Below, piece after piece: positions 3,201 through 64,000 of a stretch of 64,000 nucleotides of DNA (position 1 is the first letter of the stretch; every line of letters begins with the position of its first letter). The DNA is from the human T2T-CHM13v2.0 reference genome, Homo sapiens, in assembly GCF_009914755.1 (NCBI RefSeq), contig NC_060947.1; one strand, 5' to 3'. The notes under the pieces are model-generated. The model worked only from the letters and a program-made list of their open reading frames with translations. It did no database searches and was not told the origin of the DNA. A program made the translations under genes and the position numbers.

Positions 3201-4122
3201 TCATCCTACATTGCATGCTTAGCAGGATATGAAGCTCCTCTGGCCCCAGGTTTCGTAGCTGATCCCAGTTGAGTTGTTATACTTACAAAAAATCAAATCA
3301 CAAAGTTCCCCATTTTTGTGTTTCAAAGACTCAGATCTTCGAGGGGAATCGGGGTTCTTGCCTGATTTTCTCTTCTTGGCTTTATTCTCTGAGCCATAGG
3401 ACCAGTCATTGTCATTGATGTCATCATTATCCTCTTGGTCACTCTCAGACTTGCCCATATTGTTGCTATTGGCAATCCAGTGGATGGCGATTCGGCCGCT
3501 ATTCCCACCCATTCCCAGGCACCTATCCAGATGGGGAGCAAAACGGGAGGCAGGAATGCTACAGTTGCAGTTGGGGCAAACACACTCTTTGCTCTTCCAC
3601 TGGTTGAAAACCAATATCCTTCATGCTATTAGGGTCTGTGTCATCCAGAAAGAGGTAGCCACACATGACAGCCTGGTGTACCTCAAAGCAGAATCCCGAA
3701 CAAGAATTCTAGACTAGGTCCGCTTATATCTCCCGAGCTATGGCCTCTAGTTTGCTGTTATTCAGGCCAGACAAAGACATTTCCTCCATTTTCTTTTGTA
3801 AACTCTTGTGGAGAGGGCGCTCTGACTGTTGATAGCACAGCAGGCGGGCGGGGGTGGGGGGTGAAGGAGGGATGGGGAGTGGGGAGAAGGAGAGGGGTGG
3901 TCAGGTAGCCTCTCAGGGAAGCATTCTCTGGGGGTGGCTGCTCAAGAACCCTATGTCCTTTGGTCCATTCTCACCTCTCCCTGGGGCCCGAGGCCCAGCT
4001 GGGGGTTTGGCCTCCTTTCTGCCTCACCACCTCACCGGGCAGCCATGGCCTCTTCCCCTCCCTTCTTATCCAATCACCGCCTCCTCCTCACCTACCCCGT
4101 CCCCGCACAGTCCTCTGGGCCA
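225..4122 (-). pseudogene. ATXN7L3P1: ATXN7L3 processed pseudogene (probably ATXN7L3P1)
   Basis: Intronless ATXN7L3-like CDS 3795->2794 (first ATG mutated to AAG; early TAA/TAG; Sgf11 finger ECVCPNC; ends SIYDDIN*). About 2.5 kb 3'UTR, AATAAA at 300-305, decayed poly(A) as (TTTTA)n 221-282. 16-bp TSD TCTTGGCTACACTTTA at 209-224 and 4123-4138. P1 suffix is from memory of the Xq12 annotation. Confidence 0.95.
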
Positions 4123-4245
4123 TCTTGGCTACACTTTAGAGTCACCTGGAAAACTTTTAAAAGTTCAAATATCCAGATATTACCTCAGACAAATTAAATC
4201 AAAGTCTTTAGGAGTAGGTCCCGGACATCAGTATTCTTAGAGCTC

Positions 4246-4586
4246 TGTATTAGTCTGTTCTCATGCTGCTAACAAAGACCTACCTGAGACTGGGTACTTT
4301 ATAAAGGAAAGGGGTTTAATTAACTCACAGTTCCACATGGCTGGGGAGGCCTCACAATCATGGTGGAAGGCAAAGGAGAAGCAAAGGCACGTCTTACACA
4401 GCAGCAGGCAAGAGGGCATATGCAGGGGAATTCCCTTTTATAAAACCATCAGACCTCATGAGACTTATTCACTATCAGGAGGACAGTACAGACCTGCCCC
4501 CATGATTCAATTACCTCCCACAACGCTTGGGGATTATTACAATTCGAGGTGAGATTTGGGTGGGGACACAGAGCCAAACCATATCA
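4246..4586 (-). mobile_element. THE1 (MaLR) solo LTR
   Basis: Minus strand begins TGATATGGTTTGGCTCTGTGTCCCCACCCAAATCTCA and ends CTAATACA; 5-bp TSD AGCTC/AGCCC. Confidence 0.9.
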
Positions 4587-5530
4587 AGCCCGCCATCTGA
4601 TTTCAATGTGCAGCCAAGGTTAAGAACCACCTAGATGCCATTTGAGTTACTGTGATGAGAGATATAACTAGCAACATTTGCAGAAATTACCATTTCTTCT
4701 TCCTTTCCGCTTGTTGGTATGGGCATACGTAATATTATTCTGGGAAATCAAACTTAAATACTATCCTTGATGAGTGTGTGATCAAATGTAGGGTCAGGGA
4801 CTCGCCAGGCATAGGAAGAATTCTTATGATTTGAAACAGTGCCTAAATGGGATAAAGGGTAAGGAGAGAGCCTGAAATTAGATAACAGATACAAAATACC
4901 CTCCCACCCCAGCAGGCCCTATTATTTGGACGTAATACTATCCAGTATTCAAAGGGAAACCATCATATTACTTGATTCTTTGATAAGTTTCCTACCCTAT
5001 GAATTCCTTCTGTTATTTATTTTTTTAATGGGAACCAATGTTACCTAAAGTTTTATTTTAATAAATTTAATGTTATAGGCAACTTTGTTGGAATCTATAC
5101 ATCTCATAAAACAAGCAATAAATATATTTATTAGGCTAAGATAAAAAAACATTAGAATGGGAAATGTCTGGCAATATTCCGATTGAGTTGTCACTTTTGC
5201 AGGTCAGCACAGCAGTGTGGAACAAATATGTATATATATTTAAAGAAAGAAATTAGTATTGGAAGACTGGAAAAAATATGAAATTGTTAATAGAATTTCA
5301 GTTATACAAACAAAGGTAGACTGTTTTGTCTAGCCTGCACATGGCTTCCAAAATAAAATAGGTTCAGGCTCTCCAAAAGGATAGGTTCAGGCTCTCTAGA
5401 AGAAGTACAATAGACTCTTGCTTTATTTCAGGCACTTGCCTTAGGCATATTTCTTGGTTCTAAGTGGAATAATCCAAAATGAGCATCTGTCTTAGAAATT
5501 TCATTGATGGAGAGGCATTTCTTTGTCTCA

Positions 5531-5845
<315 letters not shown>

Positions 5846-6225: not shown

Positions 6226-8114
6226 CTCAGAGCAATAGAAAAGCAAATGGTGGTTTGTTACATTTTGAGTTCTTGAGTTTTACTACTTTCTTCATTGTAC
6301 TCTGTCTTGGACAATAGCTCAACAGTCAAGCAGTCAGCAAAGACTAATTTTTGCCTAAAGAGCTTGTGTCTTGGAAAAGGCATGGAGATCTTCCTCCATT
6401 GTTCTAAAATCACATCTACCAGTACTCATTTCTGAAGGGCAGTGCCATGAGCACAGGCAAAGTAAAATGAGCTAAAGCATTTGTTTGAAAGCTTTCCATT
6501 TTATGAGATGAATTCTTTCATAATTTTGAATTATAGGGGCAGCTGTTAGTAGCTTCCTAGTCTTCACTAAGAAAGTTGGTTAATAATATATTTTATTTAT
6601 ACTTTTCAGAATGTACATAGTGTTTCTAATTTGGGGGAAGTTACAGCCCACTGCATAACTGAGTTTTTGTCCAATGGATTATTTTACCTTTTCTCAGACA
6701 TATGCCCAGATAAGAACGTCCATGAAAGACGTTGGTACTTGCTTGGCTTAGGAGAAGGGACCATGGCTCTTCAGGGGAGAAGAGAAGCAAGGCTTACATT
6801 ATTGAAACTTACTTAGTGATCTGGCACCAGGACGATTTACCCAGATTACTTTGTGGTGGTCATACCATTCAGCACCGTGATTGCTTTTTCTTCTATAGGC
6901 TGTCTAAAGCAATGTAGTGATAGGATTTGGAAAAAAATATTTCCCAAGGAAAAGCCAAGGTTTAATATTCACTTGGTAAACATTAAGACTCCTCAGTCAT
7001 TTGGTTTGAGGCTAGTAGCAAATTATGCTGATTATTTCATTACCTTTTTAGTATGGGCTGTGGGCCCTAGGAAAACACAGAACATTTGGTAGACTTATAA
7101 ATGTTTGATTCTTAAAGCTATCCAAACTACAGTCTGATTATTTATATAGCATGGCAGTTTGATATCATTTTACTCCTCAGATCTTCTTGACTGCTTTCTA
7201 CTGATACAGATCTAACTAACTGTCCCAAGAAACCCTGGAATGATGTAACTCATTTGCTATATCAAGTCCTCCTGAACTATGGACTTAGAGATACCACCTT
7301 AGTTGGCCTAATTCATCCACCTCTTTGATCCTATTTGTAGCTCCTGCTCCAGCTATGCTATTCTCACCTTTAGTGCTTTCTCTGTTATGTCTTTAAAACT
7401 CTCCACAGCCTTTAAAGGCTAAGTTTAATGTCTACTTCTCTGGTTATCATAGAACTACCTATAAATCCAGATCACTTTTGCTCATGCTACTTTGTGATAC
7501 ATATGACTCTGTGATGTTTTTACCATAAAACCACAGGGCACTCAGTCTAGGAGATTTTTTCTGAAGTGCAAAAAATAATTAAAACACAAGTTCATACATA
7601 TGTCTGTTTTACAGTCTCTATACCTACATGAACATGTGATCTAGAAGCTGTATTCCTTTTTTTTCACAGGGTCCAGTCTACCCAAAAGAAGAGGACCCTA
7701 TGAAATGCATGCTAAGTTCTTTGTTAACTTTATGTAACATGTTGAAGCAACACTGTAGTGACAACATAGTTCTTTCAATTTTTGAAGTATGCTAGGTTCA
7801 TTCCTGCATATCAAAAGCTCAGTCCTGGGTAAATTGAAGCCTGGACTTTCTTGAGAATTTTAAACATTGTGTAAACATTATATTTAAGTGAATGTGTTTT
7901 TTATAAGATATACTGACTGAAAGCAATGACAAAATCCTTCCTTTCCTTTGAAGTTTATTGGAGAGGCTATGGAAGCACATGTAGAACTTCGTGAAATAAA
8001 AGGAGAATAAAATGAGTAAACATGTAAGGGGAGTTTAGCAGGTGGAAGTAAAAGAGTGGGGAAGCAGTACAAACTGATCTCTTTGAAAACAGCTTGAAGT
8101 TTTGTATTCATTTT

Positions 8115-11100
8115 ATGTTATTTAATTTTAATTCTTATCTTTTAAAGTTTTTTTTCCATAAGTTATTGGGGTACAGGTGGTATTTGGTTACATGAGTAAG
8201 TTCTTTAGTGGTGATTTGTGAGATTTTGGTGCACCCATCACCTGAGCAGTATACATTGATCATGGTGGATTATCTTTTGGATATGTTGCTGGATTCGGTC
8301 AGCTAGTATTTTGTTAAGGATTTTAGCATCTATGTTCATCAAGAATATCGGTCTGTAGTTTTCTTTTTTGGTTATGTCCCTTCCTGGTTTTGGTATTAGG
8401 GTGATGCTGGCTTCATAGAACGAATTAAGGAGAGTTCCTTCTTTCTCTATCTTGTGAAATAGTGTCAAAAGATTTGGTACCAATTATTTGAATGTCTGGT
8501 AGAATTCTGCTGTGAGTCTGTCTGGTCCTGGATTTCTGTTTGTTGGTAATTTTTAAATTACCATTTCAATCTCTTTGCTTGTTATTGGTCTGTTCAGGGT
8601 ATCTAATTCTTCCTGATTTAAGGTAGTATGGTTGTATTTTTACAGGAATTTATCCACCTGTTCTGAGTTTTCTAGTTTATGTGCATAAAGGTGTTCATAG
8701 TAGCCTTGAACAATCTTTTGTATTGTCAGCTGTAATATCTCCTGTTTCGTTTCTTAATGAGGTTATTTGGATTTTCTCTCTACTTTTCTTGGTTAATCTT
8801 GCTAATGGTCTATCAATTTTATTTATCTTTTCAAAGAACCAGCTTTTTTGTTTCATTTATCTTTTGTATTTTTTTTTGTTTCAATTTCCTTTAGTTCAGC
8901 TCTGAACTTGCTTATTTCCTTTCTTCTGCTGGGTTTGGGTTTGGTTTGTTCTTGTTTCTCTAGTTCCTTGAGGTGTGACCTTAGAATGTCAGTTTGTGCT
9001 CTTTTGGTCTTTTTGATACAGGCATTTAGGGCGATAAACTTTCCTCTTAGCACCAACTTTGATGTATCCCAGAAATTTTGATAGGTTGTGTCATTATTGT
9101 CATTCAGCTTGAAGAATTTTTTAATTTTCATCTTCATTTCGTCTTTGAACCAATGCTCATTCAGGATCAGATTATTTAATTTCCATAGTTTTGAAGGTTC
9201 CTTTTGGAGTTGATTTGCAGTTTTATTCCACTGTGATCTGAGAGACTGCTTGATATAATTTGAATTTTCTTAAATTTATTAAGCCTTGTTTTATGGCCTA
9301 TCATATGGTCTATCTTGGAGAAAGTTCCATGCACTGTTGAATAGAATGTGTAATCTGTGGTTGTTGAATGAAATGTTCTGTATATATCTGTTAATTCTAT
9401 TTGTTCCAAGGTATAGTTTAAATCCATTGTTTCTTTGTTGACTTTCTGTCTTGATGACCTGTTTAGTGCTGTCAGTGCAGTATTAAAGTCCCCCACCATT
9501 ATGGTGTTGCTATCTATCTCATTTCTTAGGTCTATTAGTAATTGTTTCATAAATTTGGGAGCTCCAGTGTTAGGTGCATAGATGTTTAGGATTGTGGTAT
9601 TTTTTCTTTTGGTCAAGGCCTTTTATCATTATACAATGTCTCTCTTTGTCTCTCTTAACTGCTGTTACTTAAAAGTTTGTTTTGTCTGATATAAGAATAG
9701 CTACCCCTGCTCACTTTTGGTGCCCATTTTCATGAAATGCCTTTTTCCACCCCTTTATTTTAAGTTTATGTGAGTCCTTATGTGTTAGGTGTGTCTCTAG
9801 AAGCCAGCAAATAGTTGGCTGGTGAGTTCTTATCCATTCAGCAGTTCTGTATTTTTTTAAGTGGATCATTTAGGCCATTTACATTCAATGTTAGTATTGA
9901 GATGCAAGGTACCATTGCATTCATCATGCTATTTGTTGCCTGTGTACTTTGGTTTTTTGTTCATTGTTTTTGCTTTTTAACTTGTATTTTTGCTTAATAG
10001 GTCTTATGTGATTTATGCTTTAAAGAGGTTCTGTTTTGATGTGTTTCCAAGATTGGTTTGAAGATTTAGAGCTCCTTTTAGCAGCTCTTGTAGTGGTGGC
10101 TTGGTAGTGGCAAATTCTCTCAGCATTTGTTTGTCTGAAAAAGGCTGTATCTTTCCTTCATATATGATGCTTAGTTTCACTGTGTACAAAATTCTTGGCT
10201 GATAATTGTTTTGTTTGAGGAGGCTGAAGACAGGGTCCCAATCCCTTCTAGCTTGTAGAAATCTGCTGTTAATCTGATAGGTTTTCCTTCACAAGTTACC
10301 TGGTGCTTCTGTCTCACAGCTCTTAAGATTCTTTCCTTCTTTGTCTTAACTTTAGCTAACCTGATGACAATGTGCCTAGGTGATGATATTTTTGCAATGA
10401 ATTTTCCAGGTGTTCTTTGTGCTTCTTGTTTTCGGATGTCTAGGTCTCTAGCAAGGCCAGGGAATCTTTCCTCAATTATTCTCCCAAATATGTTTTCCAA
10501 GCTTTTAGAATTCTCTTCTTCCTCAGGAACACTGAGCATTCTTAGTTTTGATTGTTTAGCAAAATCCCAGACTTTTTGGAGGCTTTGTTCATATTTTCTT
10601 ATTCTTTTTTCTTTGTCTTTGTTGGATTGTGTTAATTTGAAGACCTTGTCTTCGAACTCTGAATTCCTTTCTTCTAGTTGTACAATTCTATTGCTGAGAC
10701 TTTCCAGACCATTTTGCATTTCTGTTAGTGTGTTCAATGTTTTCTGAATTTTTTGTTTTTCTTTAAGCTGTCTATTTCCTTGAACATTTCTCCCTTTAAT
10801 TCTTGTGCTATTTTTTTTGTATTTCCTTGCATTGGGCTTTGCCTTTCTCTGCTGCCTCTCTGACTAGCCTAATAACTAACCTCCCGAATTTTTTTTTTCT
10901 GGTAAATCAGGGATTTCTTCTTGGTTTGGATCCATTGCTGGTAAACTAGTGTGATTTTTTTGGGGGGTGTTGAAGAGTCTTGTTTTGTCATATTACCAGA
11001 GTTGGTTTTCTGGTTCCTTCTCATTTGGGTAGGCTTTGTCAGAGGGAAGGTCTAGGGCTTAAGGCTGTTGTTCAGATTCTTTTGTTCCATGGAGTGTGTT

Positions 11101-12434
11101 TTTGATGTAGTACTCTCCCCCTTTTCCTATGGATGTGGCTTTCTGTGAGCCAAACTACAGTGATTGTTGTCTGTCTTCTGGGTCTTTCAACCCAGCAAGT
11201 CTACCTGGCTCTGGGCTGGTACTGGGGGTTGTCTGCATAGAGTCCTGTGATGTGAACCATCTATGGGTCTCTCAGCCATGGATACCAGTGCCTGCTCTGG
11301 TGGAGGTGGCAGGGGGGTGCAATGGACTCCATGAACGTTCTTAGGTTTGGTGGTTTAATGCTCTATTATTGTGCTGGTTGTCCTTCAGCCGGGAGGTGGC
11401 ACTTTCCAGAGAGCATCAGCAAGGGAACCAGCCTCGAGGGGGGAGCCTAGAATTCCGAAGATTATATGCCCTTTGTCTTTAGCTACCAGGGTGTGTAGGG
11501 AAAGACGATTAGATGGGGGCAGGGTTAGGCACTTCTGAGCTCAGACTCTCCTTGGGCTGGTCTTACTGTGGCCCTGTGGGCGATGGGGATGAGGCTCCCA
11601 GGTCAATGGAGTTGTGTACATAGGAGGATTATGGCTGCTTCTGCTGACTCATGCAAGTTGACACAGAAGTGGGGGAAAGCTCATAGTCACAGTCCTCACC
11701 CAGCTCCCATGCAAACCAAAGGGCTGGTCTCACTCCCACCGTGCCCCCTCTAGCAACCCCAAGTCTGTTTCCAGGCGGTGGGTGAGCCAGGCACTTGCCC
11801 CAGGCTACCCACCTCCCAGCTACAAAAGAAAAGGGCTTGGTTCTTCCTCCACCTGTGGAGTCTGCACACCGGATTCACACCCTTCCCTGAGTTCTGGCCA
11901 GGAGGTTTCTCGCCCTATCCAAATTGTTATGAAGTTCAGCTGGAGATTTCCTTCTCCTTGTGGTGTTTTCCTCACCATCTGGTCCCGCTCCTCTGGCCAC
12001 CCTCCCGATGGATCCCTGTGGTCCCAGGCAGGAATGGCCTGCTTGGGGACCCAGCAAGCTCCCAGAGCCTTTGTGCTGCTTCCTCTACCCCTGTATTTTG
12101 CTTGGATCTCTAAATTGACTCAGCTCCAGGTAAGGTCAGAAACTTCTTTCGAAAACAGACATTCCATTTCTCCAGGGGTGTGTGTTTGGGAGAGGAGGTT
12201 CCCCCTTTCCCACTTCTGCCTTTGGGGGACTCACAATATTTGGGGTGTCTCCCAGGTCCTGCAGGAACAGTCTGCTTCCTTCAGCAGATCTGTGGCTCCT
12301 TTGGGATTGCTGTTTTATTCTTTCAGTCAATCTGGAGCTAAAATTCACAATGCGAGCCTTTGCACACTGCTCTGTCCGTCAGAGTCTGAACTGCAATCTA
12401 GTCCTTCCTCCCATCTGCCATGATGATCTATACC
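8115..12434 (-). mobile_element. L1PB with long 5'UTR, ORF1 and ORF2 endonuclease region; RT half removed at a GT-AG junction (8255/8256)
   Basis: Track ORFs 10177..10737 (ORF1), 9176..9616 (EN) and 8238..8483; L1PB 3' end ttccataagttattggggtacagg; 13-bp TSD TTGTATTCATTTT at 8102-8114 and 12435-12447. Confidence 0.92.
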
Positions 12435-12489
12435 TTGTATTCATTTTCAAAACTTAAAATCTTGCACATTTGCAAGTATTCCCTATACT

Positions 12490-33847: not shown

Positions 33848-35339
33848 CAGCAACATTTACATATTGTCAAAATGAAGCAAGACAGAAAGATGTCTGTAGA
33901 ATTTTGAAGACACATCTAATAATATATTGACCTCTATGAGTTAACATTTTTAATTTTCTTCATAAGAATTATCCCATTACTCTGATTATTCCAAACTTAA
34001 AATTTAACTCCTTTTAATCTTTCCATCAGTGAATAGTCCATACAGGTATCACGGTAACATTTTGGAAATACAGACTAATAGTCTTCTAAACTTTAGAGTA
34101 TAAGAATCTTTGCAAACCAAGATAATACAAATGCAGATTCCTTACTAACAATCAAAGGGGTAGAAAAATACTTCATAGAAGGCTGACAGAACAACTAAGT
34201 CTCTAGGCCAGTGGGTGTATATCAAACTAACATATCTATACTTCCTTTGAAGGACATGGAAAGAGACATCTTGTATCAGATTAATAAACTACAAACTTCA
34301 TATATAGAATTAACTTTAAGTGTGATCTAATATAATCCAAATTCCACAGTGGGAAAGTATCACCAATATTTGGCTAGAAGGAAACTCTGAAGGCCATCTA
34401 GTTTGCTATTAACAAAGTTTTTGGTCTGATTTACCTATAAAACCAACCAGAACCCACTGGAGCATCATTAACCACATGATATCTATGTATGTAATGGTTA
34501 ACATTCAACAACAGACTGATGTCCAGAATTAACATGAAGGGTTGGCTCATGGTCAATGTCAATGAAAATCTTGGCTTATATTCAATGTTGATGAAAATTC
34601 AAGAAAAATACTTCTTTCTACTTCACCCTCTCTCTCTTTTATTCCTTGTGGATGTGAAAAGTTTAATTTGTTAAGTCAATTACAAAAGAGAACTCATAAA
34701 ATTAAAAATACATTTGTACTTCATTGAAAGATTGGCAGGCGAGCCCAAGTTTAATTTGAATATTAATGAACATTTGTTAGAACAAATGCATGCTTATCTC
34801 CTCTAAGGTAAATTATAGGTTATAACCTTTTCTCACAGGAATTATTGTGAAATGGTTTAACCATTTAAATTTTGCCTTTGTGACGCTGTGGAGAGAAAAG
34901 AATGCTTATGCACTATTTGTGGGAATGTAAATTAGCTTAGCCACTGTGGAAAGCAGTTTGGCGATTTCTCAAAGAAGTTACATTTTTTTTTTTAATTTCC
35001 ATAGGTTATTGAGGAACAGATGGTGTTTGGTTACATAAGTAAGATCTTTCGTGGTGATTTGTGAGATTCTGGTGCACTCATCACACGAACAGTATATACT
35101 GTACCCTATTTGTAGTCTTTTATCCCTCACCCCCTTCCCACCCTTTCCCCCAAAGTCGTCAAAATCCATTGTGTCATTTTTATGCTTTTGCATCCTCATA
35201 GCTTAGATCCCACATATGAGTGAGAACATATGATGTTTGGTTTTCCATTCCTGAGTTACTTCACTTAGAATAATAGTCTCCAGTCTCATCCAGGTTGCTG
35301 TAAATGCCATTAATTCATTCTTTTTTATGGCTGAGTAGT

Positions 35340-35534
35340 ATTCCATCTCATATACATATATATATATGTAGTATTCCATTATATATATAGATATATATAT
35401 ATATAGTATTCCATTATATATATATAGTAGTATTCCATTATATATATAGTATTAGTATTCCATTATATATATAGTATTCCATTACATATAAATCACAGTA
35501 TTCCATGTATATATATATATATACATGGAATACT

Positions 35535-35586
<52 letters not shown>

Positions 35587-35589
35587 AGT
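35340..35589. repeat. AT-rich compound repeat with two overlapping perfect palindromes
   Basis: Tandem TAGTATTCCATT(AT)n units; palindromes 35492-35539 (48 bp) and 35532-35589 (58 bp). Confidence 0.92.
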
Positions 35590-36796
35590 TTCTTTATTCA
35601 CTCGCTGATTGATGAGCATTTGGGTTGGTTCCACGTTTTTGCAATTGCAAATTGTGCTGCTATAAACATGTATGTACAAGTATCTTTTCATATAATGACA
35701 TTTTTTCCTCTGGGAAGATACCCAGTAGTGGGATTGCTGGATTGAGTGGTAGTTCTACTTTTAGTTCTTTAAGGAATCTCCACATTATATTTCATGGTGG
35801 TTGTACTAGTTTACATTCCCACCAGCAGTGTAGAAGTGTTCCCTGTTCACCGCATTCATGCCAACATCTATTTTTTTTTTATTTTTTTATTATGGCCATT
35901 CTTGCAAGAGTAAGGTAGTATCACATTGTGGTTTTGATTTGCATTTCCCTGATTATTAGTGATTTTGAACATTTTTTCATATGTTTGTTGGCTATTTGTA
36001 TATCTTCTTTTGAGAATTTTCTATTTATGTCCTTAACCCATTTTTGATGGTATTATTTGTTTGTTTTTTCTTGCTGATTTGTTTGAGTTCATTGTAGATT
36101 CTGGATATTAGTACTTTGTCAGATGTATAGATTGTGAAGACTCCCACTCTGTGGGTTGTCTGTGTACTCTGCTGACTGCTCCTTTTGCCACACAAAAGCA
36201 CTTTAGTTTAATAAAGTCCTAGTTATTTATCTTTGTTTTTATTGCATTTGCTTTTGGGTTCTTGGTCATAAAATCCTTGCCTAAGCCAATGTTTATAAGG
36301 TTTTTTCCAATGTTATCTTCTAGAATTTTTATAGTTTCAGGTCTTAGATTTAAGTCCTAAATCCATCTTGAGTTGAAAGAGTATAAAGTTAGAGAAGAGG
36401 ACTCAGTTTCATTATCTTACATGTGGCTAGCCAATTATCCCAGCACCATTTGTTGAAAAGGGTGTCCTTTCCCCACTTTATATTTTTGTTTGCTTTGTCA
36501 AAGACCAGCTGGCTGTATTTGGGTTTATTTCTGAGTTCTCTGTTCTGTTTTGTTGGGCTATGTGCCTATTTTTATGCCAGTACCATACTGTTTTGGTGTC
36601 TATAGCCCTATAGTATAGTTTAAAATCAGGTAATGTAATGCCTTCAGATTTGTTCTTTTTGCTTAGTCTTGCTTTGGCTCTATTTTGTTTCCATATGAAT
36701 TTTAGAATTGTTTGAAGAATGATGGTGGTATATTGAGGGGAATTGCATTGAATTTGTAGACTGCTTTTGGCAGCGTGGTCATTTTCATGATATTGA

Positions 36797-37154
<358 letters not shown>

Positions 37155-40100
37155 TGTTTGTGATTTCTTTCAGCAGTGTTTTGTAGTTTTCCTTGCAGAG
37201 AACTTTCAACTCCTTAGTTGGGTATATTCCTAAGTATTTTATTTGTTTTACAGCTATTGTAAAAGGGGTTGAGTTCTTGATGTGATTCTCTGCTTGGTCA
37301 CTGTTGGTGTATAGAAGAGCTACTGATTTGTGTACATTAATTTTGTATTGGGAAACTGCTGAATTCTTTGATCAGTTCTAGGAGCTTTCTGGAGAATTCT
37401 TTAGGGTTTTCTAGGTAATCAATCATATCTTCAGCAAACAGGAACAGTTTGACTTCCTCTTTACTGATTTGGATGCCATTTTTTTCTTTCTTTTGTCTGA
37501 TTGCTGTGGCTAGGACTTCCAGTACTATGTTGAAGAGGAGTGGTGAGAGTGGGCATCCTTGTCTTGTTCCAGTTCTCAGAGGAAATGCTTTCAATCTTTC
37601 CCCATCATTATCATCTTTTCTGTGGGTTTGTCATAGATGGCTTTTATTACATTGAAGTATATCCCTTGTATGTCGATTTTGCTGAGAGTTTTAATCATAA
37701 AGCAATGCTGGATTTTGTCAAATGCTTTCTCTGCAACTATTAAAATGATCATGTAATTTTAAAAACATTCTGTTTCTGTGGTGTATCACATTTATTGACT
37801 TACTCAAGTTAAACCATCCCTGCTTCCCTGGTATGAAACCCACTTGATCGTGGTGGATTATACATTTGATATGTTGTTAGATACGGTTAGCTAGAATTTT
37901 GTTAAAAATTTTAGCATCTATATTCATCAGGGATGTTGGTTTATAGTTTTCTTTTTTGGTTATGTCCTTTCCTAGTTTTGGCATTAGGTTGATACTGACT
38001 TCATAGAATGATACGGAGGGTTCCCTCTTTCTCTATCTTGTGGAATAGTGTCAATAGGATTGGTACCAATTATTCTTTGAATGTTTGGTAGAATTCTGGT
38101 GTGCATACTTCTGGTCCTAGACATTTTTTGTTGTTGGTAATTTTTAAATTACCATTTCAAACCTTGGTCTCTTCAAGGTTTCTAATTCTTCCTGATTTAA
38201 GCTAGGAGGGTTGTATCTTTCCAAGAATTTATCCATCTCTTCTAGGTTTTCTAGTTTATGTGCATAAAGGTGTTCATAGCAGCCTTGAATGATCTTTTGT
38301 ATTTCTATGGTGTCAGTTGTAATATCTCCCATTTCATTTCGTATTAAGGTTACTTGGATTTTCTCTCTTCTTTTCTTTGTTAATTTTGCTTATGATCTAT
38401 CAGTTTTATTTATCTTTTCAAAGAACCAGCTTTTTCTTTTATTTATCTTTTGTATTGTTTTATTTTGTTTCAATTTCATTTAGTTCTATTCTGATCTTAA
38501 TTATTTCCTTTCTTCTGCTGGGTTTGGGTTTGGTTTGTTCTTGTTTCTCTAGTCCTTGAGGTGTGACCTTAGATTGTCTGTTTGTGCTCTTTCAGACTTT
38601 TTGATATAGGTGTTTAGGGCTATGACCTTTCCTCTTAGCACTGCCTTTGCTTTATCTCAGAGGTTTTGATAGGTTGTGTCACTATTGTTAAGTTTGGAGA
38701 ATTTTTTAATTTTTATTTTGATTTCATTTTTGACCCAATAATCATTCAGTAGCAGGTTATTTAATTTTTATGTATTTGCATGGTTTTGAAGGTTCCTTTT
38801 GGAGTTGATTTCCAATTTTATTCCACTGTGGTCCAAGAGATTGCTTGATATAATTTCAATTTTTAAAAATTTATTGAGGCTCATTTTGTGGCCTATCATG
38901 TGGTCTATCTTGGAGAAAGTTCCATGCACTGTTGAATAGAATATATATTCTGTGGTTATTGGATGGAATGTTCTGTATATATCTGTATTTGTTCCAAGGT
39001 ATAGTTTAAATCCACTGTTTCTTTGTTGCCTTTCTGTCTTGATAACCTGTCTATTGCTGCCAGTGGATTTTTGAAGTCTTCCACTATTAGTGTGTTGCTG
39101 TTTATCTCATTTCTTAGGTCTATTAGTAATTATTTCATAAATTTGGGAGCTCCAGTGTCAGTTGCATATATGTTTAGGATTGTGATATTTTTCTGTTGGA
39201 CAAGGCCTTTTATCATTATATAATGTCCCTCTTTGTCTTTTTTAACTGCTGTTGCTTTAAAGTTTGTTTTGTCTGATGTAAGAATAGCTACCCCTGCTCA
39301 CTTTTGGTGTCCATTTGCATGAAATGTATTTTTCCACTAGTTTACCATAAGTTTATATGGGTCCTTATGTGTTAGGTGAGTATCTGGAAGGCAGCAGATG
39401 GTTGCTAAATTCTTATCCATTCTGCAATTCTATACCTTTTAAGTGAAGTAGTTAGGCCATTTACAGTCAATGTTAGTATTGAGATGTGAGGTCCCATTCT
39501 GTTAGTCATGCTATTTGTTGCCTGTATACCTTGGTTTTTTGTTTTTGTTTTTTAACTTGTATTTTTGTTTTATAGGTCCTGTGTGACTTATGCTTTAAAG
39601 AGATTCTGTTTAGATGTGTTTCAAGAATTGGTTTCAAGATTTAGAGCTCCTTTTAGCAGTTCTTGTAGTGGTGGCTTGGTAGGGGCGAATTCTCTCAGCA
39701 TTTGTTTGTCTGAAAAAGACAAACAAATTCATCATATATGAAGCTTAGTTTCGTTGGATACAAAATTTTTGGCTGATAATTGTTTTGTTTGAGGAGGCTG
39801 AAAATAGGGCCCCAATCCCTTCTAGCTCATAGTGTTTCTGTTGAGAAATCTACTGTTTATCTGGTAGTTTTTTTTTTTTGTTACCTCGTATTTTTGTCTC
39901 ACAGCTCTTAAGATTATTTCCTTCATCTTAACTTTAGATAACCTGATGACAATATGCCTGGGTGATGAACTTTCTGCTATGTATTTTCCAGGTGTTCTTT
40001 GTCCTTCTTGTTTTTGGATGTCTATGTCTCTAACAAGGCCAAGGGAGTTTTCCTTGATTATTCCCCCAAATATGTTTTCCAAACTTTTAGATTTCTCTTA

Positions 40101-41530
40101 TTCTTCAGGAATACCAATTATTCTTAGATTTGGTCATTTAACATAATCCCAGACTTCTTGGAGGCTTTCTTCGCATTTTATTATTCTTTTTTTCCTTTGT
40201 GTTTGTTGGATTGTGTTAATTTGAAAACCTTGCCTTCGAGCTCTGAATATCTTTCTTCTACTTGTTAGATTTTATTGTTGAGACTTTCCAGAGCATTTTG
40301 CATTTCTATAACTGTGTCCATTGTTTCCTGAAGTTTTGATTGTTTTTTCTTTATGCTCTCTATTTCTTTGAATATTTCCCCCTTCTCTTCTTGTATCTTT
40401 TTTTTTTTTTAATTTTCTTACATGGGGCTTCGCCTTTCTCTAGTGCCTCCTTGATTAGCTTAATAACTAACCTCCTGAATTATTTTTCATGTAAATCAGG
40501 GGTTTCTTCTTGGTTTAGATCTATTGCTGGCGAGCTAGTGTGATTTTTGGGGAGTCTTTAAGAACCTTGTTTTGTCATGTTACCTGAGTTGATTTTCTCG
40601 TTCCTTCTCATTTGGGTAGGCTCCTCAGAGGGAATGTCTAGGGCTGAAGGCTGTTGTTCAGATTCTTTTGTCTCACAGGGTGTGTTTTCGATGTAGTGCC
40701 CACCCCCTTTTTCTACAGATGTGGCTCCCTTAGAGCCAAGCTGTAGTGATTGTTATCTCTATTTTGGATCTAGCCACCCAGCAAGTCTATCCAGCTCTGG
40801 GCTGGAACTTGGGGTTGTCTGCACAGAGTCCTGTGATGTGAACAATCTGTGGGTCTCTCAGCCATGGATACCAGCACAGTATTTGGGGTATATCCCAGGT
40901 CCTGCAAGAGCAATCCTCTTCCTTCAGAGAGTCTGTGGTTCCTCTTGTGTTTCTTGATTTATTTCTTCAGTTGTTCTGGAGCAAAAATTTACGATGTGGG
41001 CCTCCACACTCTGCTCTGTTCATCTGAGTAACAGCTGCAATCTAGTCCTTCCTCAAGTCTGCCATGATCCCTCCCTCCCATCTGCCATAATCCTCTTAAA
41101 GAACTTAAAACAAAACAACCATTTGACCCAGCAATCCCATTACTGACTATGTATCTACAAGACAACATATTGTTCTACCAAAAGGTCATGTATTCACATG
41201 TTCATGGCCACACTATTCACAATAGCAAAGACATTGAATCGACCTAGGTGCCCATCAACGGTAAACCAGATAAAGAAAATATGCTACATATACACCATGA
41301 AATGCTATGCAGCCATAAAAGAATGAAATCAGATTCTTTGCAGCAAAATGAATTTAGCTGGAGGCCATTATCCTAAGCAAATTGACAAAATAAAATACCA
41401 CATGTTCTCACTTATAAATAGGGGCTAAACGTTGAGTACTTATGGATATAAAGACAGCAACAATAGAAACTGAAGGCTACTAGAGGGAGGAGAGGGGGAG
41501 ATGGGCAAGGGTTGAAAAATAATTACTGGG

Positions 41531-44265
<2,735 letters not shown>

Positions 44266-63224: not shown

Positions 63225-64000
63225 TTTTTAAATTTCATTAGTTTTGGGGGTACAGGTGGTTTTTGGTTACATGAATGAGTTCTTTAGTGGTGAATGCTGA
63301 AATTTTACTATACCCGTCATCTGAGAAGCACACACTATGCCCGATATATAGTCTTTCATCCCATATCCCCTTTCCAAACTCCACCCCTACGAGGCTCCAA
63401 AGTCCAGTATATCACTCTGTATGTCTTTGCATCCTCATAGCTTAGCTCCCACTTATAAGTGAGAATATACAGTATTTGGTTTTCCATTTCTGAGTTACTT
63501 CACTTAGAATAATGGCCTTCAGCTCCATCCAAGTTGTTGCAAATGACATTATTCCATTCCTTTTTATGGCTGAGTAGTATTTCATGGTGTATATACACTA
63601 CATTTTCTTTATCCACTCCTTGGTTGATAGGCACTTAGGTTGGTTCTATATCTTTGCCATTGTGAATTGTGCTGCTATAAACATGCGTGTACATATGTCT
63701 TTTTCACGTGTAATGACTTATTTTTCTTTGGGTAGATACCTAGTTGTGGGATTGCTGGATCGAAAGATAATTCTGCTTTAATTTTTAAAGGAATCTCCAT
63801 AGTGTTTTCTATAGTAGTTGTACAAACTTACATTCCCACCAGCAGTGTAAAAGTGTTTTATTTTCACCACATCCACACCAACATCTATTGTTTTTTTGAC
63901 TTTTTAATTATGGCCATTCTTGCAGGAGTGAAGTGGTATCACACTGTGGTTTTGAATTGTATTTCCCTGATGATTAGTGATGTTGAGTATTTTTTTCATA
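63225..64000 (-). mobile_element. L1PB 3' end, continuing beyond the window
   Basis: ttttgggggtacaggtggtttttggttacatgaatgagttctttagtggtga followed by ORF2 C-terminal sequence. Confidence 0.9.

What the first reader, a model, noticed from the sequence alone, without database searches (positions are those of the whole stretch)
8102..12447. Integrated spliced L1PB: ORF2-to-3'UTR intron removed exactly at GT...AG
Seen: this TSD-flanked L1PB jumps from mid-ORF2 to the end of the 3'UTR (minus strand CCACCATGATCAA|TGTATACTGCTC at 8256/8255). The second L1PB in the window shows the missing segment: it begins CAA|GTGGGT (37843) and ends GGGTACAG|TATATAC (35099). The third L1PB also has AG there (63335-63336). 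With this copy's TGTAT start, joining through the shared AGTG microhomology would give ATCAAGTGTAT, but the observed ATCAATGTAT is the exact splice product. Established: spliced integrated L1s (SpIREs) are described mainly for 5'UTR and 5'UTR/ORF1 splices in L1PA. Inference: an RT-less RNA keeping promoter, ORF1 and EN was mobilised in trans; this may represent an overlooked non-autonomous L1PB derivative class.
Basis: partly seen in the sequence, partly recalled or inferred. Interest (0 to 1): 0.82.

Follow-up and report, generated by a model that had tools for sequence, protein, structure and literature searches.

The report
Internally deleted old L1 copy
An ancient L1 retrotransposon copy lacks its reverse-transcriptase half, and although the gap ends exactly on intron-like GT...AG letters, it is unique in the genome and is more likely an ordinary deletion than a spliced-RNA copy.

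Summary
A minus-strand L1 (12434-8115) with 13-bp target-site duplications jumps from the start of the ORF2 reverse-transcriptase domain (8256) to the last ~140 bases of the 3'UTR (8255). In intact relatives the missing piece starts with GT and ends with AG, with no microhomology.

The proposed "derivative class" is not supported. The junction 27-mer with up to 3 mismatches occurs once in T2T-CHM13, while the unspliced donor 27-mer occurs 9,398 times. No other copy joins this donor to a distant site.

The donor looks decent (CAA|GTGGGT, rank 8 of 163 GTs by a rough matrix). The acceptor is poor: purine-rich upstream, no pyrimidine tract, rank 79 of 178 downstream AGs.

Large internal deletions are common in this family. 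I found 6 in 146 kb of sampled copies, none GT-AG, and one (L024) has a similar span but CTAA microhomology. A random deletion mimics GT...AG in 0.16-0.26% of simulations, so a few mimics are expected genome-wide.

My odds:
- Non-spliceosomal deletion with coincidental GT...AG: about 0.6.
- Retrotransposed spliced RNA (an ORF2/3'UTR SpIRE): about 0.3.

Orthologous primate loci would decide, and I could not reach them.

The parts
12435..12447 (-). 5' target-site duplication AAAATGAATACAA, preceded by TTTTG
   Evidence: identical 13-mer at 8114-8102
10864..12434 (-). L1 5'UTR. It starts at the same point as the second copy's 5' end. It includes 944 bases (12231-11289) that the second copy lacks. 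The RefSeq 'enhancer' 11516-11810 lies inside it.
   Evidence: hub annotation
10013..10863 (-). Decayed ORF1: trimerisation, RRM-like and C-terminal dsRBD-like domains
   Evidence: PF17489 1.6e-09, PF02994 1.2e-25, PF17490 1.7e-26; frames
9176..9869 (-). Decayed ORF2 endonuclease domain
   Evidence: PF14529 3.8e-07 and PF03372 6.6e-06 on 9622-9176; N-terminal piece 9869-9711 read, with no Pfam hit
8256..8483 (-). Start of the RT domain (RVT_1 profile positions 1-42 of 205). It ends ...IIHHDQ at the junction, and the frame would stop 5 codons later.
8255..8256 (-). The junction, ATCAA|TGTAT: no shared base and no filler
8115..8255 (-). Last ~90 bases of the L1 3'UTR plus a degenerate A-rich tail. 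The first 80 bases are 100% identical to several other copies.
8102..8114 (-). 3' target-site duplication
35099..37843 (-). Comparator: the segment of the second copy that corresponds to the gap (GT at 37843-37842, AG at 35100-35099). It contains that copy's own Alu (about 37160-36839) and TA-rich expansion (about 35572-35360).
63335..63336 (-). Comparator: AG before TGTGTGC in the third 3' end

Best explanation
This is a single, tens-of-millions-of-years-old L1 insertion. The element entered by ordinary target-primed reverse transcription.

It carries a roughly 2.25-kb internal deletion that removes the RT domain, the rest of ORF2 and most of the 3'UTR. The deletion is most likely not spliceosomal. 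It is either a later genomic deletion repaired by blunt end-joining (about 0.45), or a jump of the reverse transcriptase or a broken template at integration (about 0.15). On this reading its ends fall on GT...AG by coincidence.

Shown: the anatomy, the exact ends, and that the junction is unique. Inferred: the time and mechanism of the deletion.
For: 1. Singleton. The junction 27-mer at up to 3 mismatches finds only this locus, while the same tool finds 9,398 unspliced donors with 0 hits for the reversed control. Of 40 scored hits to a 160-base junction-spanning query, only self spans the junction.

2. The donor is not reused.
- One search gave 142 hits to the donor anchor followed by non-G, non-T. 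I read 38 of them: 30 loci and 8 regions. Only self jumps to a distant site.
- One search gave 35 hits to a broader anchor: 29 continue normally, 2 are short deletions, and 4 are non-L1 chance hits. This element itself falls outside that pattern's last letter.

3. Weak acceptor. The 17 bases upstream are 35% pyrimidine by my count, and I found no branch-point-like motif by eye. With rough matrices recalled from memory, its log-odds is -3.0 and its rank 79 of 178 downstream AGs.

4. High base rate of deletions.
- In 81 loci (146,396 aligned bases) I found 6 genuine internal deletions of 500 bases or more, and 0 of 6 are GT-AG.
- L024 runs from the RT start to the 3'UTR like this one, but through CTAA microhomology.
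- Both full-length copies in this window carry internal gaps, and the second copy's 944-base gap is not GT-AG.

5. Expected mimics. With a mimic rate of 0.16-0.26% and thousands of such deletions genome-wide (my extrapolation), several GT...AG look-alikes are expected. This one was picked out because it looks that way.
Against: - The junction is blunt, with no microhomology and no filler. By my reading, 5 of the 6 sampled deletions (4 clearly) show microhomology, filler or a complex join.
- GT and AG are both the family's majority state.
- The donor CAA|GTGGGT matches 7 of 9 consensus positions and ranks 8 of 163 GTs.
- The 4-base AGTG microhomology lying one base away was not used.
- Routes that reach the same letters through microhomology need an extra event. 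One is a G-to-A change at a site where 23 of 405 copies show A. Another is a 1-base G deletion, seen once, in L034.
- RT-less L1 derivatives that encode ORF1 are known to be mobilised in trans (HAL1; passage read in PMC5753468).
Confidence: 0.6

Rival explanations
1. Spliced integrated retrotransposed element. A full-length L1 RNA of this family was spliced from the cryptic donor CAA|GTGGGT at the start of the RT domain to the AG about 110 bases before the poly(A) site. The RNA then still coded for ORF1p and a truncated, endonuclease-only ORF2p. It was reverse-transcribed and integrated by ORF2p supplied in trans by another L1, once, and left no progeny.
For: - Exact GT...AG with zero microhomology. 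The chance per random deletion is 0.16-0.26%.
- Both dinucleotides are the family's majority state.
- The donor is in the top 5% of GTs.
- TPRT hallmarks are intact.
- SpIREs exist in L1PA: 116, 4 and 11 copies of three types (PMC5860796, passages read).
- HAL1 shows that L1 RNAs with ORF1 but no RT can be mobilised (PMC5753468).
Against: - The acceptor lacks a pyrimidine tract and a branch-point motif, and 78 downstream AGs score better.
- No second insertion carries this junction, although thousands of potential source copies have both sites.
- The donor is never seen joined elsewhere.
- The RNA would need ORF2p in trans, against cis-preference.
- All described SpIREs use the 5'UTR donor G98U99 and keep ORF2, and the SpIRE97/622 junction search found none in L1PB (PMC5860796).
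Confidence: 0.3
2. Microhomology-mediated event on a variant template. The acceptor-side G had already mutated to A (CAA|TGTATAC), giving a 3-base CAA match with ATCAA|GTGGG. The join then arose by slippage, template switching or MMEJ.
For: The CAA variant exists: 23 other copies against 382 CAG by exact 18-mers, and 5 of 29. That last set was biased towards CAA by the query. Microhomology joins are common in sampled deletions (L024, L048).
Against: The variant is only 5.7% of copies (23 of 405). It sits in varied upstream contexts, which suggests independent decay rather than a source lineage. This route therefore adds only a modest share to the non-splice total and is counted inside it.
Confidence: 0.05

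Closest known systems
SpIREs (spliced integrated retrotransposed elements; Larson et al. 2018, PMC5860796; earlier Belancio et al. 2006 and 2008, which I could not read)
   Same: A TSD-flanked L1 insertion whose internal gap begins with GT and ends with AG relative to intact copies.
   Different: - The donor lies in ORF2 rather than at the 5'UTR G98U99, and the acceptor in the 3'UTR.
- The gap removes the RT, so ORF2p would have to come in trans.
- It is a single copy, against 116, 4 and 11.
- The family is much older.
- There is no RNA evidence, and the acceptor is weak.
HAL1 (half-L1) non-autonomous L1 derivatives (PMC5753468, passage read; Bao and Jurka 2010 not held)
   Same: An L1-derived unit that keeps ORF1, lacks the RT and depends on ORF2p from elsewhere.
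   Different: HAL1 families are multi-copy and, per the passage read, encode only ORF1p. This element keeps the endonuclease part of ORF2 and has no sister copies.
Ordinary internally deleted L1 fossils
   Same: The size and position resemble L024, which runs from the RT start to the 3'UTR. Such deletions occur at about 6 per 146 kb of family sequence.
   Different: The junction is blunt and coincides with GT...AG. The sampled cases mostly show microhomology or filler.
Processed pseudogenes (the hub annotates two in this window, ATXN7L3P1 and EIF4BP9)
   Same: If this element was spliced: an intron-less copy of a spliced RNA, inserted by L1 machinery in trans, with a target-site duplication and an A-tail.
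   Different: The template would be an L1 RNA itself, and the 'intron' is a cryptic one.

Membership tests
SpIRE | L1 insertion with TPRT hallmarks (target-site duplication, A-tail, T-rich nick site) | tested here: met
   13-bp target-site duplication and an A-rich tail. The duplication starts AAAA and is preceded by TTTTG.
SpIRE | Internal gap bounded exactly by GU...AG of the intact element | tested here: met
   GT and AG are the majority state. No alternative placement of the gap is possible.
SpIRE | The same junction recurs in independent insertions | tested here: not met
   1 of 1 genomic matches is this locus; the positive control gave 9,398.
SpIRE | The splice sites are functional in L1 RNA | tested here: inconclusive
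   Only rough recalled matrices were used: donor rank 8 of 163, acceptor rank 79 of 178 with log-odds -3.0. No RNA data were available. Supplementary table S11 of PMC13221650 could not be read.
SpIRE | The gap was present at the time of integration | not testable with these tools
   No primate genomes were on hand.
HAL1 | A multi-copy family that propagates as a unit | tested here: not met
   Single copy.
HAL1 | Encodes only ORF1p | tested here: not met
   The endonuclease and the first 42 RVT_1 profile positions are retained.
Post-insertion genomic deletion | An orthologue with the same target-site duplication that still holds the deleted segment | not testable with these tools
   No primate genomes were on hand.
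Post-insertion genomic deletion | A junction with the usual repair signature (microhomology or filler) | tested here: not met
   The junction is blunt. Blunt joins do occur, but by my reading they are the minority among the 6 sampled deletions.

The most novel reading that the evidence does not exclude
This locus is a true ORF2-to-3'UTR SpIRE in a pre-L1PA family. It would be a fossil of an L1 RNA that had lost its RT by cryptic splicing, still coded for ORF1p and an endonuclease-only ORF2p, and was inserted by another element's ORF2p. In effect it would be a HAL1-like non-autonomous derivative caught at birth, one that did not found a family.
Probability: 0.3. Interest if true: 0.5.

Novelty: already known. 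Interest (0 to 1): 0.27.

Why it matters
As it stands, this is one decayed L1 with an internal deletion, which is ordinary. If the splice reading were proven, it would extend SpIREs beyond the 5'UTR donor and beyond L1PA. It would also give genomic evidence that RT-less, ORF1-coding L1 RNAs are mobilised in trans, which is the presumed first step towards HAL1-type parasites.

The useful outcome is a testable null. Across all L1 internal deletions, GT...AG junctions should be about 0.16-0.26%, and a clear excess would reveal a hidden population of ORF2 SpIREs.

Tried and rejected
- **Subfamily or class.** Rejected: the junction is unique.
- **Recurrent use of the donor with other acceptors.** None found. 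Four odd-looking hits have no L1 similarity.
- **CAA-variant microhomology as the main route.** The variant is only 23 of 405 copies, in mixed contexts. I kept it as a minor rival.
- **The second copy's 944-base 5'UTR gap as a SpIRE.** A GTGAGT lies at 12234-12229, but the gap edges are AG...CA, so I rejected it.
- **L015,** where non-UTR sequence precedes TGTATAC. This is a roughly 60-base insertion replacing GGTGCAG, not a long-range join.
- **L024.** A similar span, but joined through CTAA microhomology.
- **L039 and L052.** Apparent deletions caused by (TA)n matches to the reference copy's own expansion. I dropped both.
- **Rows dropped.** I sorted these by eye: every gap of about 300-325 bases at reference 3936-4257 (the reference copy's Alu), every gap of about 205-245 bases at reference 5524-5736 (its TA-rich expansion), and every pair in which one HSP was that Alu itself (Alu insertions in the loci).
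- **A larger sample of 20 regions for the base rate.** Not obtained.
- **Papers not held:** Belancio 2006 and 2008, and Bao and Jurka 2010.
- **Supplement of PMC13221650,** which lists 570 L1 splice junctions. Unreadable. It may show whether the equivalent donor is used in modern L1.
- **Prior reports.** In six literature searches I saw no listed title or abstract describing an ORF2-to-3'UTR SpIRE. This covers only the held library, and only listings plus the passages I read.
Full report
**What is there.** On the minus strand an L1 body runs from 12434 to 8115. It is flanked by the 13-base duplication AAAATGAATACAA (12447-12435 and 8114-8102) and ends in a degenerate A-rich tail. The duplication starts with AAAA and is preceded by TTTTG. 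That is close to the usual L1 endonuclease site, so this is one target-primed insertion.

Its 5' end starts at the same point as the second full-length copy in the window. Pfam finds the three ORF1 domains (10863-10013) and the endonuclease (9622-9176). It finds only profile positions 1-42 of 205 of RVT_1 (8483-8238). All frames are broken.

At 8256/8255 the sequence passes from ...ATCCACCATGATCAA to TGTATACTGCTC..., which is the last stretch of the 3'UTR. blastn against the window places 11288-8256 on 40874-37844 of the second copy (83.8% identity), and 8253-8148 on 35096-34989.

**Are the gap ends GT...AG?** Yes.
- In the second copy the missing piece starts CAA|GTGGGT (G at 37843) and ends ...TACAG| (35100-35099). 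The third 3' end also has AG.
- This is the family's majority state. The unspliced donor 27-mer has 9,398 matches at up to 3 mismatches, with 0 for the reversed control.
- AG precedes TGTATAC in 24 of 29 other copies.
- Exact 18-mers give CAG 382 and CAA 24, the latter including this element.
- No base is shared across the junction, so the gap cannot be placed anywhere else.

The second copy carries its own Alu and a TA-rich tandem expansion inside that stretch. In three intact copies GT to AG spans 2,245, 2,252 and 2,370 bases, which I worked out by hand from the coordinates.

**Is there a class?** No.
- The junction 27-mer at up to 3 mismatches, with and without IUPAC letters at decay-prone sites, matches only this locus.
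- Of 40 scored hits (from 3,270 first-look candidates) to a 160-base query across the junction, only self spans it. The other 39 match the 3' half alone.
- All 23 other copies reading CAA|TGTATAC have the normal G-rich 3'UTR upstream.
- At about 10% divergence per copy, I estimate that roughly two thirds of sister copies would pass the 3-mismatch filter. Several sisters would therefore not all be missed, though one could be.

**Is the donor used elsewhere?**
- One search gave 142 hits to the donor anchor followed by non-G, non-T (6 in the reversed control). I read 38 of them: 30 loci and 8 regions.
  - Of the 30 loci, one is this element and the other 29 continue into the normal RT sequence, with point changes or a 1-base deletion (L034).
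  - Of the 8 regions, three are 11-46-base deletions (L062, L063, L068), two are point variants and three are not L1.
- One search used a broader anchor and gave 35 hits (11 in the control). Of these, 29 continue normally, 2 are short deletions and 4 have no L1 similarity. This element itself falls outside that pattern's last letter.
- So no other retrotransposed copy shows this donor joined to a distant acceptor.

**Splice-site quality.** I used rough frequency matrices recalled from memory, so only the ranks within this L1 mean much. The donor CAAGTGGGT ranks 8 of 163 GTs. The acceptor ranks 79 of 178 AGs downstream of the donor, with log-odds -3.0. Its upstream sequence (...GGGATAAAAGACTACAAATATGGTGCAG) follows the G-rich polypurine tract. 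The 17 bases upstream are 35% pyrimidine, and I saw no branch-point-like motif. Both of those are my own counts by eye.

**Base rate of look-alikes.** A random 0.5-5 kb internal deletion in the second copy is exactly GT...AG in 0.16% of 400,000 simulations, and in 0.26% when equivalent placements are allowed.

I aligned 81 already-fetched loci (146,396 aligned bases) to the second copy. I then discarded the gaps caused by that copy's own Alu and TA expansion, Alu insertions in the loci, and two (TA)n artefacts (L039, L052). That left six genuine deletions of 500 bases or more: L016, L024, L038, L043, L048 and L060.
- None is GT-AG.
- L024 runs from just before the same RT start to the 3'UTR through CTAA microhomology.
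- L048 uses about 8 bases of homology.
- L038 and L060 carry filler or a complex join.
- L016 and L043 look nearly blunt.

Both full-length copies in this window have internal gaps, and the second copy's 944-base 5'UTR gap has edges AG...CA. Extrapolating about 0.04 deletions per kb to the hundreds of megabases of L1 in the genome gives thousands of deletions. That in turn gives on the order of ten or more chance GT...AG cases. This extrapolation is mine and was not computed.

**Weighing.**

For splicing:
- exact blunt GT...AG ends;
- a good donor;
- both sites conserved in the family;
- known precedents, namely SpIREs in L1PA1-6 (116, 4 and 11 copies; PMC5860796, passages read) and HAL1 (passage in PMC5753468).

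Against splicing:
- a poor acceptor, with many better ones downstream;
- the need for ORF2p in trans;
- no recurrence among thousands of potential sources;
- a high rate of ordinary deletions;
- selection of this case precisely because it looks like GT...AG.

I put a non-spliceosomal deletion at about 0.6 (later genomic deletion about 0.45, RT jump or broken template at integration about 0.15). Splicing is about 0.3. A microhomology route through a CAA variant is about 0.05. The rest is unassigned.

**Literature.** Larson et al. describe only SpIREs that use the 5'UTR donor, and their SpIRE97/622 junction search found none in L1PB. I could not read Belancio 2006 or 2008, or Bao and Jurka 2010. 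I also could not read the supplement of PMC13221650, which lists 570 L1 splice junctions. These may bear on whether the equivalent donor is used in modern L1. In the listings of six searches I saw no title or abstract reporting an ORF2-to-3'UTR SpIRE.

**Verdict.** The proposed new class is not there. The splice origin remains a minority possibility that orthologous primate loci could settle.

Noticed in passing
window 40874-40875 compared with 12231-11289: The second full-length L1 copy lacks 944 bases of 5'UTR that the first copy has. A perfect GTGAGT lies at 12234-12229, but the gap edges are AG...CA, so it is not a splice product.
   Followed up: yes
window about 36839-37160 and about 35360-35572: The second L1 copy holds a sense Alu with its own short duplication (AAGAAATC.CAAACA), and a TA-rich tandem expansion built on the ATGGAATACTA motif. 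These inflate the apparent 'intron' by about 530 bases.
   Followed up: partly
L024 (G000:C6:64271783-64274865): Another copy of the family, with a deletion of about 2.2 kb net from just upstream of the same RT start to the 3'UTR, joined through CTAA microhomology.
   Followed up: partly
L034 (G000:C7:81004596-81007615): An ordinary copy reading ATCAA|TGGGTTT, which is a 1-base loss of the donor G. This shows that the 'microhomology plus 1-base deletion' route is possible but rare.
   Followed up: partly
L015 (G000:C23:133787278-133790355): About 60 bases of unknown origin replace GGTGCAG immediately before TGTATAC, the same spot as the acceptor in the finding.
   Followed up: partly
window 41584-41870: An older L1 RT fragment on the opposite strand (71.7% identity to 8541-8259) lies upstream of the second copy's 5' end.
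   Followed up: no
window 11516-11810: The RefSeq 'enhancer' feature lies wholly inside the 5'UTR of this L1.
   Followed up: no
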